Positions 349 to 12,844 of a stretch of DNA of 64,000 nt are shown one piece after another. Under the pieces are notes generated by a model. It did no database searches. It saw only the letters and a list, made by a program, of their open reading frames with translations, and was not told the DNA's origin. The DNA comes from Candidatus Dormiibacterota bacterium. Its GTDB lineage: Bacteria > Chloroflexota > Dormibacteria > Aeolococcales > Aeolococcaceae. The translations under genes were made by a program, and so were the position numbers. The stretch spans positions 1,216,001 to 1,280,000 of the forward strand of contig OY970355.1 of assembly GCA_963718525.1 (NCBI GenBank). Reading direction: 5' to 3'. The number at the start of each line of letters is the position of its first letter. The stretch's first letter is position 1.

Positions 349-420
349 GCCCGCATCGTCTAGCGGTCAGGACACCACCCTTTCAAGGTGGTAACCGGGG
401 TTCGACTCCCCGTGCGGGTA
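349..420 (+). tRNA. tRNA-Glu(TTC); CCA not encoded
   Basis: Cloverleaf: acceptor GCCCGCA/TGCGGGT, anticodon arm CCACC-CTTTCAA-GGTGG, T arm CGGGG-TTCGACT-CCCCG, discriminator A. Confidence 0.97.
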
Positions 421-437
421 CGCTGATCGCGCCAACG

Positions 438-8933: not shown

Positions 8934-9721
8934 GCACTCCGGCATATGCGCTGCGCGATTCGACAACCATGCTGCGACGCGACCTGCGTCACGCCGTGCG
9001 GTATCCGCTCCTGTCGGTCAGCGGTTTGCTGGTGCCGGTGTTTCTCCTGCTGCTGTTCGTGGGGGTTTTTGGCAACACGCTGCTGGCAGGGCTCGGCGCG
9101 GCTGCACCTGCCGGAGGCCACTACATCGACTTTCTCGCTCCCGGCATCCTCGTCATGACCGTAGGCGCCAGTGCAGCGGCGACCGCGATCAACGTCTGCA
9201 TCGACATGAACGAGGGAATCGTCGCCCGCTTTCGCACCATGGCCATCAGCCGGACCTCGGTTCTGACCGGCCAGGTGCTCGGAAGCCTGATCAGAACCAT
9301 GATCAGCGGCGTCCTCGTCGTCGCCGTTGCGATCGGCCTCGGTTTCCGGCCGACCGCCGCACCGCTCGAGTGGGTTGGTGCCGCCGCCCTGTTCTCACTC
9401 CTGATCCTCGCGCTCACCTGGCTGGCCATCGCCATCGGCCTACAGGCAAAGACGCCTGCCGGCGCGAACAGCCTGTCCCTGATCCCGCAGTTCCTCCCGT
9501 TCATCAGCAGCGCGTTCGTGCCGACGGCCTCGATGCCCGCGGGAGTGCGGTGGTTCGCCGAGAATCAGCCGTTCACCCCCATCATCAATGCGATTCGAGG
9601 GCTGCTCACCGGCACGCCGATCGGCAACGCCGCTGTCATTGCGGTGGCGTGGTGCGTGGGACTGATGCTCGTCGGCTACGTGGTGTCGCGTGCCCGGTAC
9701 GACCGCTATGTGACGCGGTAG
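8930..9721 (+). CDS. ABC-2 type permease (DrrB-like)
   Basis: Six hydrophobic segments, DMNEGIVARFRTMAISR, FAENQPFTP; ATGA-coupled to the ATPase. Confidence 0.92.
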   Translation: MSTPAYALRDSTTMLRRDLRHAVRYPLLSVSGLLVPVFLLLLFVGVFGNTLLAGLGAAAPAGGHYIDFLAPGILVMTVGASAAATAINVCIDMNEGIVARFRTMAISRTSVLTGQVLGSLIRTMISGVLVVAVAIGLGFRPTAAPLEWVGAAALFSLLILALTWLAIAIGLQAKTPAGANSLSLIPQFLPFISSAFVPTASMPAGVRWFAENQPFTPIINAIRGLLTGTPIGNAAVIAVAWCVGLMLVGYVVSRARYDRYVTR

Positions 9722-9756
9722 CCTGCACCCAATTTCGATATGCAAGGAGAGTGGAC

Positions 9757-10278
9757 GTGGCTGGTGATCAGGCAAGCGAAGCCGACGACGAGATGCTCCG
9801 GGACTTTCTCCGCGGCCAGCGCGAATCGGTGCTGGCGATCGTCGACGGGCTCGACGAGGAGGCGTGGCACCGCTCCGTCGTGCCCACGGGCTGGACGCCG
9901 GCCGGACTGCTCGAGCATCTGGGCGGCGCCGAGTGGCACTGGTTCCAGGGCGTCGTGGCGGGCAAGGAGCCGGAGCTGCCAGGCGACCTCGCCGAGGATC
10001 AGCCGCCGTACGACCCCATGACCGTGGTGTTCACAACCGACGCGCCCTCGGCGGAGGTCGTCACGTTCTACCGCGACCAGTGCGTGCAGTCCGAGGCGGT
10101 GCTGGCGGCAACGCCATTGTCGGCGCGGCCGTTGGGTAAGCACGGGCTTGGCGAATTCGAACCACCGAATGTTCGTTGGGTCGTGTTGCATATGATCGAG
10201 GAGACTTCGCGGCATGCCGGGCATCTGGACATCGCGAGGGAGCTGCTCGACGGCAGGACCCGTCTGGGTGGCCGCTGA
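9757..10278 (+). CDS. DinB/DUF664 family protein
   Basis: LRDFLRGQRESVLAIVDGL, GLLEHL, RWVVLHMIEETSRHAGHLDIARELLDG; RBS AAGGAG then GTG. Confidence 0.88.
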   Translation: MAGDQASEADDEMLRDFLRGQRESVLAIVDGLDEEAWHRSVVPTGWTPAGLLEHLGGAEWHWFQGVVAGKEPELPGDLAEDQPPYDPMTVVFTTDAPSAEVVTFYRDQCVQSEAVLAATPLSARPLGKHGLGEFEPPNVRWVVLHMIEETSRHAGHLDIARELLDGRTRLGGR

Positions 10279-10314
10279 CGTGCCCAACGTCCTTATTTGT
10301 GAATGAATTTGGCG

Positions 10315-10390
10315 TGGTCCCAGGGGATGGAGTCGAACCATCGGTACACGGTTTTACAGACCGCTGCCTTGACCACTTGGCTACCCTGGG
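10315..10390 (-). tRNA. tRNA-Tyr(GTA), atypical: C1:G72, A73, 5-nt variable loop, CCA encoded
   Basis: Minus strand CCCAGGG-TA-GCCAAGTGGTCAAGGC-A-GCGGT-CTGTAAA-ACCGT-GTACC-GATGG-TTCGACT-CCATC-CCCTGGG-A-CCA (76 nt). Confidence 0.93.
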
Positions 10391-10501: not shown

Positions 10502-12844
10502 ATGCAGCGGACGGCTTTGAGCAGCGGCCCATCGAATTCGGCGATGGAAACCGCCGGCCGGCACGACAAGAGCAAGGCCGTCAGAGCTCTGATGGGCCGC
10601 GGCCGGTTCATCGATGACATCCATCTTCCGGAAGAGCAGCACTGTTGCTTCCTGCGAAGTCCCGTGGCCAGGGGGAGGATTGTTGGTGTTGCACCTCCGC
10701 GGAGCGCGATTTCGGGAGTCACCTTTTTCACTGCCGCCACCTTCGGCGGGGATCTGTGGATGCCGCGCGGTCTGTACCGCTTCCCTGATCAAGTCGAAAT
10801 CCCGTTCCCCGCTCTTGCCGACGAGAGAGTTGCGTTCGTCGGGCAGCCTATCGCCGCGGTGCTCGCCTCCAGCCGTGCGCTGGCAGAAGATGCGATCGAA
10901 CAGGTGACTCTTGATATTGAGGAAGAGCGGCCAACCGTTCGTGCCCCATCTCCGGATGACGTGTTCGGATCAGTCCTTCCCATTGCGACACACGATGGAC
11001 CTGTCCAGGGCGTGCTGACTGCGAACTACGGCATGTTTGTAGCGAGGGAGTTTGGCGTCGGTGTGGTCAATGCGGACATCACCCTGGGCCGCGCCGCCGC
11101 CATGCCCATCGAGACCCGAGGCGTGCTCGCGGTCTTCGACGAACTCGAGGAATGCCTGACCGTGTGGCTGCCGACGCAGCTACCCAGTCTTGCGCGCACG
11201 TGGATCGCCGAGGCGCTGGGGATGCGGACATCCAATGTGCGCGTGATCGTCCCGGACGTGGGGGGATCGTTCGGATCGAAGTGGCATCTGTACCCCGAGG
11301 ACCTGGCTGTTGCGGCGATGGCCCGGGCGACTGGCAAGCCCGTGAGGTGGATCGAAGACCGTTACGAGCATTTCGTATCGACAGTCCATGCCCGCGAGCA
11401 GCGAACCATCATCTCCCTTGACTCCGACGACCAGGGGTGTCTTCGTGGAATCCGAAGCCGCGCGGTCGCTGATCAGGGCGCGTACTTCCATACGGCCGGC
11501 CCCGCGCCGTCTGCCAACTCGGTGTTTCTCGCGTCCGGCCCCTACCGAGTGCCGGTTGTGGACGCCGCTGTTGCGGTGTCCATCACCAACAAGACACCAT
11601 ATGGAGCCTACCGAGGCTTCGGTCAGGAGGCGGCCATCTTCGCGCTGGAACGCGGGATCGACCTTCTCGCTCGGGACCTCGGTGTCGATCCCGTCGCTCT
11701 GCGGCGCCGCAACCTCCTCAGACCCGACGAGCTTCCGTACAAGACTCCGACTCGCCAGGTCCTGGACTCGGGCGACTATGTACGGTGTTTGGACGTGGCA
11801 GCGGAACGAATCGGGTACGAACGCACAAGACCACGACCTCCCTTTCGGGGCGTGGGGATTGCGTTCTACGTCGAGAACACGGGCCTGGCCTCATCCAAGC
11901 AGGCTGCGAAAGCCGGGTGGACGACGCCGACTTTCGAAAGAGTCCGGCTCTGGCTCGAGCCCGATGGAGGCGTCGTGGTCGAATCCTGCCTCGTCGAAAT
12001 GGGTCAAGGCGTCGAGAGAACCCTTGCCCTGATCGCTGCAGCTCCACTGGGCGTCGACCCATCAATGATCGACGTACGGCTTGGAGATACGAGGAGTGGA
12101 GCGTTCAGCGCCTTCGGCACAGCCGCGAGCCGAGGCGTTGTCAGCGGTGGCGCAGCGGTCGAAACAGCCGCAGAACGGCTGCGGGACGAGGTCCTTCGCG
12201 CCGCGTCGATGCTCCTTGACGTGCCTGTGGACGCACTCACTCTCGCCGACGGCAGAGTCGTGGTGGAAGGTGATGCGAGTCGAAGCATCAGCCTATCGGA
12301 GGTCGCGCGCGCCTACTACGGCGTGCGGTCGACTGACCTCAGAGGGGTGGAGCTCGATGTGACGGTGACCTTCGAGTTGAAGGCACCGTCGTTTGGATAC
12401 GGCGCGCATGCTGCAGAAGTCGCCATCGACCCCGACACCGGGTTGGTGTCGATCGAGCGATATGTGGTGGTGCACGACTGCGGCGAGATGGTGGATCCGG
12501 CCGGCGTGGAAGGCCAGATCAGCGGTGGAACGGCACAGGGCATCGGTCAGGCGTTGATGGAGAGCTTGACGTACGACTCGAATGGCCAGCCCGGCGTTGT
12601 CTCTTTCATGGACTATCTGCTTCCCACGAGCGGCGAGTGTCCCAACATCGAGTTCTGCCACTTTTCCACCCCGTCTCCCTTCACGAAATCCGGGCGCCGC
12701 GGCATTGGAGAGTCGGGATGCGTCGGTGCTCCAGCCACGATCGTCGCTGCAGTCCAGGATGCCCTGCCACCGAACGCGCCATTTCTCACCGCGCTGCCAC
12801 TCCACCCCGCGCAGTTGCTCGCCATCATCAAAGAGTTCGGGTAA
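10502..12844 (+). CDS. Xanthine dehydrogenase-family molybdopterin-binding (large) subunit
   Basis: GRGRFIDD, PDVGGSFGSK, AYRGFG, EMGQG, GTAASRG, GQISGGTAQGIG, GIGESG; start may be ATG 10544. Confidence 0.93.
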   Translation: MQRTALSSGPSNSAMETAGRHDKSKAVRALMGRGRFIDDIHLPEEQHCCFLRSPVARGRIVGVAPPRSAISGVTFFTAATFGGDLWMPRGLYRFPDQVEIPFPALADERVAFVGQPIAAVLASSRALAEDAIEQVTLDIEEERPTVRAPSPDDVFGSVLPIATHDGPVQGVLTANYGMFVAREFGVGVVNADITLGRAAAMPIETRGVLAVFDELEECLTVWLPTQLPSLARTWIAEALGMRTSNVRVIVPDVGGSFGSKWHLYPEDLAVAAMARATGKPVRWIEDRYEHFVSTVHAREQRTIISLDSDDQGCLRGIRSRAVADQGAYFHTAGPAPSANSVFLASGPYRVPVVDAAVAVSITNKTPYGAYRGFGQEAAIFALERGIDLLARDLGVDPVALRRRNLLRPDELPYKTPTRQVLDSGDYVRCLDVAAERIGYERTRPRPPFRGVGIAFYVENTGLASSKQAAKAGWTTPTFERVRLWLEPDGGVVVESCLVEMGQGVERTLALIAAAPLGVDPSMIDVRLGDTRSGAFSAFGTAASRGVVSGGAAVETAAERLRDEVLRAASMLLDVPVDALTLADGRVVVEGDASRSISLSEVARAYYGVRSTDLRGVELDVTVTFELKAPSFGYGAHAAEVAIDPDTGLVSIERYVVVHDCGEMVDPAGVEGQISGGTAQGIGQALMESLTYDSNGQPGVVSFMDYLLPTSGECPNIEFCHFSTPSPFTKSGRRGIGESGCVGAPATIVAAVQDALPPNAPFLTALPLHPAQLLAIIKEFG

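What the first reader, a model, noticed from the sequence alone, without database searches (positions are those of the whole stretch)
10315..10390. Bacterial tRNA-Tyr(GTA) with archaeal/eukaryal identity: C1:G72, A73 and no variable arm
Seen: a clean 76-nt cloverleaf with a GTA anticodon, acceptor stem CCCAGGG/CCCTGGG (C1:G72), A73, encoded CCA and only a 5-nt variable loop. Established: canonical bacterial tRNA-Tyr has G1:C72 and a long type II variable arm. C1:G72 with a short loop is the archaeal/eukaryal identity set and the reason the M. jannaschii TyrRS/tRNA pair is orthogonal in E. coli. From memory, C1:G72 tRNA-Tyr has been reported mainly in Candidate Phyla Radiation bacteria; this genome is metabolically rich and not CPR-like. 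The D-arm and anticodon arm (GCCAAGTGGTCAAGGC...CTGTAAA) look bacterial (Tyr/Cys-like), so this seems a remodelled bacterial tRNA rather than an archaeal import. Inference: either the lineage has a TyrRS with switched specificity (a natural orthogonal pair), or this is a second tRNA charged by another synthetase and recodes UAY codons. G72 and A73 are also bacterial ProRS determinants.
Basis: partly seen in the sequence, partly recalled or inferred. Interest (0 to 1): 0.85.

Follow-up and report, generated by a model that had tools for sequence, protein, structure and literature searches.

The report
Archaeal-style tyrosine tRNA in a soil bacterium
This soil bacterium (Dormibacteria) has swapped the normal bacterial tyrosine tRNA and its charging enzyme for an archaeal-style pair, a swap so far described only in tiny candidate-phyla-radiation (CPR) bacteria, and in related bacteria the two genes sit together as a small cassette.

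Summary
Window 10315-10390 (minus strand) is a clean 76-nt tRNA-Tyr(GUA) with C1:G72, A73, a 5-nt variable loop and encoded CCA.

It is the only tRNA-Tyr in a single-contig 3.34-Mb genome. The genome's only TyrRS is archaeal-type: NF006330 scores 395 bits, and the best solved relative is 2cyc at E 1e-119. It does not reach the bacterial tyrS cut-off and has no room for the bacterial C-terminal arm-binding domain. So this is a matched archaeal-type tyrosine pair, not a recoding tRNA and not a bacterial TyrRS with switched specificity.

The genome is a Dormibacteria bacterium. In its GTDB family, 44 of 50 sampled genomes carry the archaeal-type enzyme, against 0 of 150 in the class's four other families. 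The family genera that lack it carry bacterial tyrS, and 3 of 5 genomes of them searched showed an 84-nt G1:C72 long-arm tRNA-Tyr.

In 28 of 96 bacterial-titled loci, and 0 of 29 archaeal-titled loci, a C1-type tRNA-Tyr lies just upstream of the TyrRS gene.

The phenomenon was published for CPR bacteria (Mukai et al. 2017). I found no report for Dormibacteria or Chloroflexota. Verdict: new member of a known kind, moderate interest.

The parts
10315..10390 (-). tRNA-Tyr(GUA), 76 nt, C1:G72, A73, 5-nt variable loop, encoded CCA; the only tRNA-Tyr of the genome
   Evidence: ARAGORN; Rfam RF00005 at 67.2 bits; sequence; whole-genome ARAGORN found 47 tRNAs with one Tyr; a relaxed cloverleaf regex hit only this locus
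9370..10278 (+). Flanking gene (context only): DinB/mycothiol-S-transferase family, convergent with the tRNA; terminator-like hairpin at 10277-10291
   Evidence: Pfam PF04978 at 126 bits and PF12867; terminator scan
10502..12844 (+). Flanking gene (context only): molybdopterin-binding dehydrogenase large subunit, divergent from the tRNA. The partner TyrRS is NOT in the window; it lies at G000:C1:1980771-1981898 (minus), tail to tail with TrpRS at 1979751-1980767 (plus)
   Evidence: Pfam PF20256, PF02738, PF01315; TyrRS and TrpRS

Best explanation
The gene encodes the cell's single, working tyrosine tRNA. It is charged by the genome's single TyrRS, an archaeal-type enzyme that reads C1:G72 and A73 at the acceptor end plus the GUA anticodon, and needs no long variable arm because it lacks the bacterial C-terminal arm-binding domain. 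Together they form a complete replacement of the bacterial TyrRS/tRNA-Tyr pair. UAY codons still mean tyrosine.

Shown here: the anatomy of the tRNA; that tRNA and enzyme are each unique in the genome; the enzyme type; and that the archaeal-type and bacterial TyrRS exclude each other across the family (the matching tRNA type was seen wherever it was looked for and found).

Inferred: the pair entered an ancestor within this Dormibacteria family by horizontal transfer, most likely as a tRNA-then-TyrRS cassette from another bacterium. The enzyme ultimately came from archaea of the DPANN (small-genome archaea) kind. The native pair was then lost. In the window's genus the cassette was later split: the tRNA is at 1.226 Mb, and the TyrRS sits next to TrpRS at 1.981 Mb.

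The confidence given (0.85) is for the first paragraph, the matched working pair. The cassette-transfer history I rate at about 0.4-0.6.
For: The tRNA.

Sole tRNA-Tyr: 1 of 47 tRNAs, and one locus only by regex.

Enzyme uniqueness: only two PF00579 genes in the genome, one a bacterial-type TrpRS (TIGR00233, 302.7 bits).

Enzyme type: the other gene is a 375-aa TyrRS scoring 395.1 bits on NF006330 (cut-off 220) and 88 bits on bacterial tyrS TIGR00234 (cut-off 113.8). Its best solved relative is 2cyc_A at E 1.2e-119 over residues 5-360, with the GMDQRKAH motif identical. PF00579 covers residues 33-351 of 375, leaving no room for an extra domain.

Recognition residues: in M. jannaschii TyrRS, Arg174 reads C1 and Lys175 reads G72 (PMC1934993, passages). 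The window enzyme has R191-K192 where the sister genus's bacterial enzyme has L-F.

Distribution: NF006330 is over cut-off in 5 of 151 genomes of the phylum sample, all in family f1. In the class sample it is 44 of 50 in f1 and 0 of 150 in the four other families. Bacterial tyrS is over cut-off in 9 of 61 family genomes, all in genera g3, g101, g107 and g110. The six f1 genomes that lacked the archaeal type all have it.

tRNA types: a short-loop GUA tRNA pattern hit 47 of 61 family genomes and 0 of 10 genomes of those four genera. Three of 5 genomes searched from those genera yielded an 84-nt G1:C72, A73, long-arm tRNA-Tyr next to tRNA-Thr.

Linkage: a C1-type tRNA-Tyr lies on the same strand upstream of the TyrRS gene in 28 of 96 bacterial-titled loci and 0 of 29 archaeal-titled loci.

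TyrRS tree (82 rows, quick search): all Dormibacteria and Chloroflexota rows, plus one WWE3 row (L224) and L077, sit in one clade (29 rows, 96). That clade is nested in a long-form clade whose basal rows are DPANN archaea.

RpoB tree: 16 archaeal-type genera form one clade (95), and well-supported branches force only one switch.
Against: Nothing biochemical was tested; charging with tyrosine is inferred from gene content.

The RNA-library contig with the tRNA does not prove transcription.

Cassette transfer is not proven. Linkage is present in only 28 of 96 bacterial loci. In the window's own clade the genes are unlinked. No archaeal locus shows the linkage, so the tRNA's origin is open.

The trees are quick searches with SH-aLRT support only. 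The TyrRS tree holds no Thermococcales or other non-DPANN archaea. The best RpoB tree needs 2 switches: g4 (archaeal type, long branch) falls at the base with support 87, and g3 and g100 are unresolved.

One family genome (G341) also carries a bacterial-type long-arm tRNA-Tyr on a contig of 60% GC. I read it as bin contamination but did not prove that.

The bacterial tRNA-Tyr was not recovered in 2 of 5 bacterial-type genomes searched (G083, G288).
Confidence: 0.85

Rival explanations
1. The TyrRS gene came alone from archaea into the Dormibacteria ancestor, and the resident bacterial tRNA-Tyr (or another resident tRNA) was then remodelled in place by flipping 1:72 and losing the long arm.
For: The D arm of the window tRNA scores highest against the genome's own tRNA-Cys (16 of 19) and tRNA-Gln (14), higher than against the one DPANN tRNA-Tyr recovered (10). 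C1:G72 tRNA-Tyr genes that still have a long arm exist next to archaeal-type TyrRS in L077 and in a WWE3 genome (L249). Mukai et al. read such genes as remodelled bacterial tRNAs (PMC5370408, main text). None of 29 archaeal-titled loci has an adjacent tRNA-Tyr.
Against: The window tRNA is unlike the bacterial tRNA-Tyr of sister genera (D-arm score 9 of 19). Other Chloroflexota-titled genomes carry an identical acceptor stem and anticodon arm (L136, L138), whose T arm is identical to that of family relatives of the window, not of the window itself. Linkage to TyrRS recurs in Anaerolineae, Aggregatilineales, CPR and Dormibacteria. The bacterial TyrRS sequences form one clade. Remodelling may have happened, but more likely once, in an earlier bacterial host.
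Confidence: 0.15
2. The tRNA is an extra tRNA charged by another synthetase (for example ProRS, which in E. coli reads G72 and A73), so that UAY codons are recoded or mistranslated.
For: The three tRNA-Pro of the genome share C1:G72 and A73 with this tRNA.
Against: It is the only GUA tRNA and a matching archaeal-type TyrRS is present. The anticodon lacks the G35/G36 that ProRS needs (established knowledge, Table 1 of PMC9976931 as seen). The only ProRS is the family I type (TIGR00408, 549.6 bits, cut-off 437), and nothing reaches the TIGR00409 cut-off. No second ProRS-like gene was found.
Confidence: 0.02
3. A bacterial TyrRS evolved switched 1:72 specificity together with its tRNA (convergence, no gene transfer).
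For: None found here beyond the tRNA's bacterial-looking D arm.
Against: The enzyme is a full-length relative of archaeal TyrRS (2cyc at E 1e-119; NF006330 at 395 bits). It is 22% identical over 198 residues to the sister genus's bacterial TyrRS.
Confidence: 0.01
4. Artefact: archaeal contamination or an assembly error.
For: Many relatives are metagenome bins with unreliable labels.
Against: The tRNA and the TyrRS lie on one 3.34-Mb contig. The same state is seen in 44 of 50 family genomes. Independent contigs match exactly.
Confidence: 0.01

Closest known systems
Archaeal tRNA-Tyr identity in CPR bacteria (Mukai, Reynolds, Crnkovic, Soll 2017, Life 7:8, PMC5370408; whole main text read, figures and supplements not seen)
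   Same: Bacteria with a C1:G72 tRNA-Tyr and an archaea/eukarya-type TyrRS, thought to derive from DPANN archaea. In my tree some CPR sequences sit in or beside the clade that holds the window's enzyme.
   Different: That paper names only Parcubacteria, Microgenomates, WS6 and WWE3. 'Chloroflex', 'Dormibacter', 'AD3', 'Anaerolin' and 'Dehalococc' occur 0 times in its text. Many CPR tRNAs there keep the long arm, whereas here the loop is 5 nt. The host here is a free-living 3.3-Mb soil bacterium, the replacement holds across most of a family, and tRNA-TyrRS linkage (reported there for tRNA-Trp/TrpRS-A, not for Tyr) is frequent.
Archaeal TyrRS of the long form, solved structure 2cyc (by my recall Pyrococcus horikoshii; the PDB table gives only 'tyrosyl-tRNA synthetase')
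   Same: 375 aa in both; aligned over residues 5-360 at E 1.2e-119; HIGH-region, GMDQRKAH and KMSKS motifs shared.
   Different: Encoded in a bacterium. The closest genomic relatives are bacterial (57-96% identity) and DPANN (52-56%).
Engineered E. coli whose TyrRS/tRNA-Tyr pair was replaced by an archaeal pair (Iraha et al. 2010, PMC2887954; search listing and abstract only)
   Same: Full functional replacement of the bacterial tyrosine pair by an archaeal-type pair in a bacterium.
   Different: That is a laboratory construct; this is a natural, inherited state.
Canonical bacterial tRNA-Tyr/TyrRS, as kept by sister genera g101 and g107
   Same: GUA anticodon, A73, same codons read.
   Different: G1:C72, a 13-14-nt variable arm, 84 nt, next to tRNA-Thr(GGT). 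The TyrRS is 426 aa and matches TIGR00234 over positions 17-402 of 406.

Membership tests
Archaeal/eukaryal tyrosine identity set (class I tRNA-Tyr) | GUA anticodon | tested here: met
   ARAGORN, anticodon gta at position 34
Archaeal/eukaryal tyrosine identity set (class I tRNA-Tyr) | C1:G72 first pair | tested here: met
   Sequence and Rfam alignment. The first pair is C:G in all 33 distinct short-loop relatives
Archaeal/eukaryal tyrosine identity set (class I tRNA-Tyr) | A73 discriminator | tested here: met
Archaeal/eukaryal tyrosine identity set (class I tRNA-Tyr) | Short variable loop, no long arm | tested here: met
   5-nt loop GTACC
Archaeal/eukaryal tyrosine identity set (class I tRNA-Tyr) | Cognate archaeal-type TyrRS in the same genome, without the bacterial C-terminal arm-binding domain | tested here: met
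   NF006330 at 395.1 bits (cut-off 220), 375 aa, PF00579 covers 33-351; 2cyc at E 1.2e-119
Archaeal/eukaryal tyrosine identity set (class I tRNA-Tyr) | Tyrosylation depends on C1:G72 and A73 | not testable with these tools
   Needs an aminoacylation assay
Canonical bacterial tRNA-Tyr (class II) | G1:C72, a long variable arm, and a bacterial TyrRS (TIGR00234) | tested here: not met
   C1:G72 and a 5-nt loop. Best TIGR00234 score is 88 bits against a cut-off of 113.8; nothing is over the cut-off in the genome
Mistranslating or ProRS-charged tRNA (tRNA-ProX-like; comparison recalled from memory, not from a call) | ProRS anticodon determinants G35/G36, or a dedicated extra ProRS | tested here: not met
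   Anticodon is GUA. There is one ProRS, of family I type, and no match over the TIGR00409 cut-off

The most novel reading that the evidence does not exclude
The C1:G72 tRNA-Tyr gene and the archaeal-type TyrRS gene form a portable two-gene 'identity cassette'. It moves between bacterial phyla (CPR, Anaerolineae, Aggregatilineales, Dehalococcoidia-like lineages, Dormibacteria). Because it is insulated from the resident tyrosine pair, it can establish beside that pair and then displace it. That would be a natural route by which a core piece of the translation machinery is exchanged as a unit. A bolder, untested extension: the swap is favoured because it frees the cell from inhibitors or nucleases aimed at the bacterial TyrRS or the long-arm tRNA-Tyr.
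Probability: 0.4. Interest if true: 0.7.

Novelty: new member of a known kind. Interest (0 to 1): 0.5.

Why it matters
The tyrosine pair is the textbook case of a domain-specific tRNA identity rule, and it underlies most genetic-code-expansion work in E. coli.

Until 2017 archaeal-type TyrRS was held to be absent from bacteria, and the published exceptions are reduced, probably symbiotic CPR bacteria. Finding the complete swap fixed in most of a family of free-living, high-GC soil bacteria, and scattered through Chloroflexota-titled genomes, shows that the rule is broken in ordinary bacteria as well.

Three things follow:
- Sister genera with the old and the new pair give a natural before-and-after comparison.
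- The tRNA-TyrRS linkage points to a transfer mechanism that could be tested.
- These genomes offer new pairs, already adapted to bacterial ribosomes, EF-Tu and processing, as candidate orthogonal pairs.

For annotation, a C1:G72 short-loop tRNA-Tyr in these lineages is genuine and not an error.

Tried and rejected
Searches that found little:
- Looked for the DPANN donors' tRNA-Tyr to compare. Pattern CTGTAAA...GTTC found 0 of 5 genomes. BLAST with the window tRNA found only tRNA-Cys and tRNA-His. A looser pattern gave one intron-less (L145) and one intron-bearing (L148) tRNA-Tyr. That is too few to decide the tRNA's origin.
- BLAST with a bacterial-type tRNA-Tyr found the gene in 3 of 5 bacterial-type family genomes and not in G083 or G288.

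Errors corrected:
- My first RpoB tree was wrong. In three loci the longest frame was an antisense frame, which gave a branch of length 10. It was redone with frames chosen by BLAST.

Limits of what was obtained:
- The promoter scan found no sigma-70-like site near the tRNA.
- Sequencing runs are held as contigs only, so they show no ends, strand or expression. The RNA-library contig (X15) is not evidence of transcription. Runs with small shares that I did not lay say nothing.
- The Pfam scan did not name the C-terminal domain of the sister genus's bacterial TyrRS. Its presence rests on the TIGR00234 match over positions 17-402 of 406.

Not in print, as far as searched:
- 'tyrosyl-tRNA synthetase' + 'archaeal-type' + 'Chloroflexi': 1 paper, off topic.
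- 'TyrRS' + 'Chloroflex': 4 papers, of which the 3 listed are off topic.
- Six-term search: of the 20 listed of 68, only PMC5370408 bore on the Tyr pair in bacteria (PMC6337575, on engineered tRNAs, also held Tyr terms), and none joined Tyr terms with Dormibacter or Chloroflexota.
- Ten papers hold the title of Mukai 2017; of the two I checked, PMC5424206 holds it only as a reference (no TyrRS text) and in PMC9437257 the passages shown had nothing on bacterial archaeal-type TyrRS.
- 'tyrosyl-tRNA synthetase' + 'horizontal gene transfer' + 'archaea' + 'Anaerolineae': 0 papers.
- One search listed 15 of 744 papers; none holds 'Dormibacter'.
- The 2023 identity review states the plain bacterial versus archaeal rule (passages).
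- Subscription journals, figures and supplements were not searchable, and supplements are closed. Figure 2 and any supplement of Mukai 2017 could list non-CPR bacteria that I could not see.

Not run: tRNAscan-SE isotype models were not available. Structure prediction, complex prediction, the search of protein representatives, the search for homologous proteins and the protein-atlas search were not used, because the sequence matches were already decisive.

Full report
OBSERVATION.
Window 10315-10390 holds, on the minus strand, a tRNA that ARAGORN calls tRNA-Tyr(gta). Rfam's tRNA model matches it at 67.2 bits (gathering score 29, E 3.1e-14). Read 5' to 3' it has:
- acceptor stem CCCAGGG/CCCTGGG, hence C1:G72;
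- a three-pair D stem;
- anticodon loop CUGUAAA;
- a five-base variable loop;
- a standard T arm;
- A73 and an encoded CCA.

Contigs from other public studies carry the same 77-78 bases without a difference but in other flanks (X6 record 18; X15 record 3, from an RNA library). A contig of a further study (X5 record 7) spans 9900-10382 with two differences. These are contigs, not raw reads. They confirm the sequence but say nothing about expression.

THE GENOME AND THE PARTNER ENZYME.
The window lies in a single contig of 3,336,189 bases with 66% G+C. ARAGORN finds 47 tRNA genes covering all twenty amino acids and selenocysteine, with one tRNA-Tyr. A relaxed cloverleaf search for any GUA tRNA, allowing a variable region of 3-24 bases, hits only this locus.

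The genome has two genes of the Trp/Tyr synthetase family, lying tail to tail at 1.980 Mb.
- One is a bacterial-type TrpRS (TIGR00233, 302.7 bits).
- The other is a 375-residue TyrRS. It scores 395.1 bits on NF006330 (cut-off 220) but 88 bits on the bacterial tyrS model TIGR00234 (cut-off 113.8), and it matches only the first half of that model.

Among solved structures its best relative is 2cyc (E 1.2e-119, residues 5-360 of 375). This is followed by other tyrosyl-tRNA synthetase entries that I recall, or judge by their lengths, to be archaeal and eukaryotic (the table gives no organisms). The M. jannaschii enzyme family (1j1u) comes at E 1e-45. That 2cyc is the Pyrococcus horikoshii enzyme is my recollection, not something a call showed.

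The catalytic family domain fills residues 33-351, so there is no room for the bacterial C-terminal domain that holds the long arm.

A structural paper (PMC1934993, passages read) states that in the M. jannaschii enzyme Arg174 reads C1 and Lys175 reads G72. The window enzyme has R191-K192 in a GMDQRKAH motif identical to 2cyc. The bacterial TyrRS of a sister genus has Leu-Phe at those positions. That this motif is the one holding Arg174/Lys175 is my recollection and was not aligned here.

The tRNA-Trp of the genome keeps the bacterial A1:U72, G73 form, so only the tyrosine system is changed.

WHO HAS IT.
The closest records are titled Candidatus Dormibacterota or Dormibacteria, at up to 96% identity.

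In a sample of 151 genomes of the GTDB phylum, the archaeal-type enzyme passes its cut-off in 5, all in the window's family f1. In a sample of the class it is present in 44 of 50 other f1 genomes and in 0 of 150 genomes of the four other families.

In a family sample of 61, bacterial tyrS passes its cut-off in 9 genomes, all in genera g3, g101, g107 and g110. The six f1 genomes that lacked the archaeal type all have bacterial tyrS. No genome has both.

A pattern for a GUA tRNA matched 47 of 61 family genomes and none of the 10 genomes of those four genera. Of its 52 matches, 51 are the short-loop kind.

Three of the five bacterial-type genomes I searched gave an 84-base tRNA-Tyr with G1:C72, A73 and a long arm, next to tRNA-Thr(GGT). 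In the other two (G083, G288) I did not find the gene.

The one long-arm match (G341, contig 38) lies on DNA of 60% G+C, against 69% for that genome's TyrRS locus, with no frame resembling anything in the window's genome. G341 has only the archaeal-type TyrRS. I take that contig for bin contamination, without proof.

Across all loci I collected there are 33 distinct C1:G72, A73, five-base-loop tRNA-Tyr sequences. They show paired changes in the acceptor, anticodon and T stems (for example CCCAGGG to CCTGGGG with the matching 3' change). That is what a working tRNA under selection looks like.

BEYOND THE FAMILY.
The same enzyme type, at 57-68% identity, occurs in records titled Chloroflexota, Anaerolineae, Aggregatilineales and Dehalococcoidia, and in several CPR groups. 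DPANN archaea follow at 52-56%.

Some records with the Dormibacteria-like sequences are titled Actinomycetes, Binatia, Saccharimonadales or Angelobacter. They nest inside the Dormibacteria clade, so I suspect mislabelled bins.

Five of five further Chloroflexota-titled genomes with the enzyme have a C1:G72 short-loop tRNA-Tyr elsewhere in the genome.

LINKAGE.
Among 125 distinct TyrRS loci, a tRNA-Tyr beginning with C1 lies on the same strand upstream of the enzyme gene in 28 of 96 bacterial-titled loci:
- 9 of 43 titled Dormibacteria;
- 7 of 36 titled Chloroflexota;
- 9 of 12 with other bacterial titles;
- 3 of 5 CPR.
The gap is 13-360 bases in 26 loci and 1.2-1.5 kb in two. The same holds in 0 of 29 archaeal-titled loci, 28 of which had at least 400 bases of upstream flank.

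Within the family the linked form is seen in genera g102, g2, g104, g105, g100 and g99. In the window's genus the tRNA sits at 1.226 Mb between a DinB/mycothiol-transferase-like gene and a molybdopterin dehydrogenase gene, and the enzyme sits beside TrpRS.

TREES.
The TyrRS tree has 82 rows and was built with a quick IQ-TREE search with SH-aLRT support only. It was rooted on other TyrRS forms of a DPANN phylum sample. It gives:
- a long-form clade (56 rows, support 100) whose basal rows are DPANN archaea;
- within it, one clade (29 rows, 96) holding every Dormibacteria- and Chloroflexota-titled row plus one WWE3 row and L077;
- the Dormibacteria-like rows together (14 rows, 99);
- a second small bacterial group (L162, L169) nested among archaea.
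In the DPANN phylum sample only 3 of 30 loci had the long form at 50% identity or more. Thermococcales and other archaea are not in the tree, so the donor is not fixed.

The RpoB tree of one genome per genus keeps family f1 together (99) and puts 16 archaeal-type genera in one clade (95). The bacterial-type genera g107 and g101 branch below that clade. g3 (bacterial type) and g100 (archaeal type) are unresolved. g4 (archaeal type, long branch) falls at the base with support 87. The best tree needs two switches; the well-supported branches force only one.

HOW IT MOST LIKELY WORKS.
The tRNA is the cell's tyrosine tRNA, charged by the archaeal-type TyrRS through C1:G72, A73 and the anticodon. 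This is the recognition mode established for archaeal and yeast enzymes (PMC1934993). The genetic code is unchanged.

The rival that another enzyme charges it fails on four counts:
- there is no other tRNA-Tyr;
- the anticodon lacks the G35/G36 needed by ProRS (identity table of PMC9976931 as shown);
- the only ProRS is the family I type (TIGR00408, 549.6 bits), and nothing reaches the family II cut-off;
- no second ProRS-like gene was found.
It is worth noting that the three tRNA-Pro here share C1:G72 and A73 with tRNA-Tyr. The two systems must therefore be kept apart by the anticodon.

ORIGIN OF THE tRNA.
This is undecided. Its D arm is most like the genome's own tRNA-Cys and tRNA-Gln, and CPR relatives with C1:G72 still carry a long arm (L077, L249). 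Both fit a bacterial ancestry.

But it is unlike the sister genera's tRNA-Tyr. Distant Chloroflexota-titled genomes share its acceptor stem and anticodon arm, and share their T arm with family relatives of the window, not with the window itself (L136, L138). It is also often linked to the enzyme gene.

I therefore think any remodelling happened in an earlier bacterial host and that the pair then travelled together. I rate that at about 0.4-0.6.

WHAT IS KNOWN.
Mukai et al. 2017 (PMC5370408, main text read) reported C1:G72 tRNA-Tyr with archaea/eukarya-type TyrRS in CPR phyla and proposed DPANN donors. Their text does not mention Chloroflexi or Dormibacteria. My other literature searches found no such report. 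Those searches cover open-access full text only, without figures or supplements.

VERDICT.
This is a new member of a known kind. The new points are a non-CPR host lineage, near-fixation across a family with old-type sister genera, and a recurrent tRNA-TyrRS cassette.

Noticed in passing
G000:C1:3022667-3025285 and family loci L282-L308: RpoB is 1129-1130 aa with one unbroken model match in genera g1, g106 and g108 (g103 and g143, cut at contig ends, show the same unbroken match). It is about 1173-1176 aa with a break near model position 550 in nearly all the other family genera with a full-length frame and about 1170-1185 aa in the outgroups. A roughly 45-residue stretch seems to have been lost in the window's subclade.
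   Followed up: partly
L099 (G341:C38:39602-42640), tRNA at 1469-1553: One family genome with the archaeal-type pair also holds a canonical 85-nt G1:C72 long-arm tRNA-Tyr. It lies on a contig of 60% GC with no frame similar to the window's genome. This is probably bin contamination, but a retained second tRNA-Tyr is not excluded.
   Followed up: partly
L249 and L251 (G371, titled candidate division WWE3): This CPR genome has two long-arm tRNA-Tyr(GUA) genes. One has C1:G72 and lies about 1.5 kb upstream of the archaeal-type TyrRS; the other has G1:C72 and lies elsewhere. This may be a coexistence stage. Whether a bacterial TyrRS is also present was not checked.
   Followed up: no
G000:C1:2522324-2523742 and the three tRNA-Pro genes: The ProRS is the family I (archaeal/eukaryote-like) type. 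tRNA-Pro and tRNA-Tyr share C1:G72 and A73 in this genome.
   Followed up: partly
G000:C1:206148-206246: ARAGORN calls a 99-nt tRNA-Ser(cga) whose ends (TCAGGTG ... GATCGCCCGGG) do not look like a normal acceptor stem. A normal tRNA-Ser(cga) exists at 2053417-2053505. This may be a false call or an odd tRNA-like gene.
   Followed up: no
L252-L281 (sample of a DPANN phylum): TyrRS is heterogeneous inside one DPANN phylum. Only 3 of 30 loci have the ~375-aa form at about 50% identity or more to the window enzyme; the rest are 26-40% identical and 315-365 aa. Several matches there contain single in-frame TAA or TGA codons.
   Followed up: no
G332:C1:1041009-1041960 and G341:C58:24047-24884: In two family genomes the TyrRS (G332) or the TrpRS (G341) match is split over two frames. 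These are likely assembly frameshifts.
   Followed up: no
window 349-421 (+); G000:C1:2729774-2729868: A second tRNA in the window, tRNA-Glu(ttc), looks ordinary. The genome also has a tRNA-Sec.
   Followed up: no
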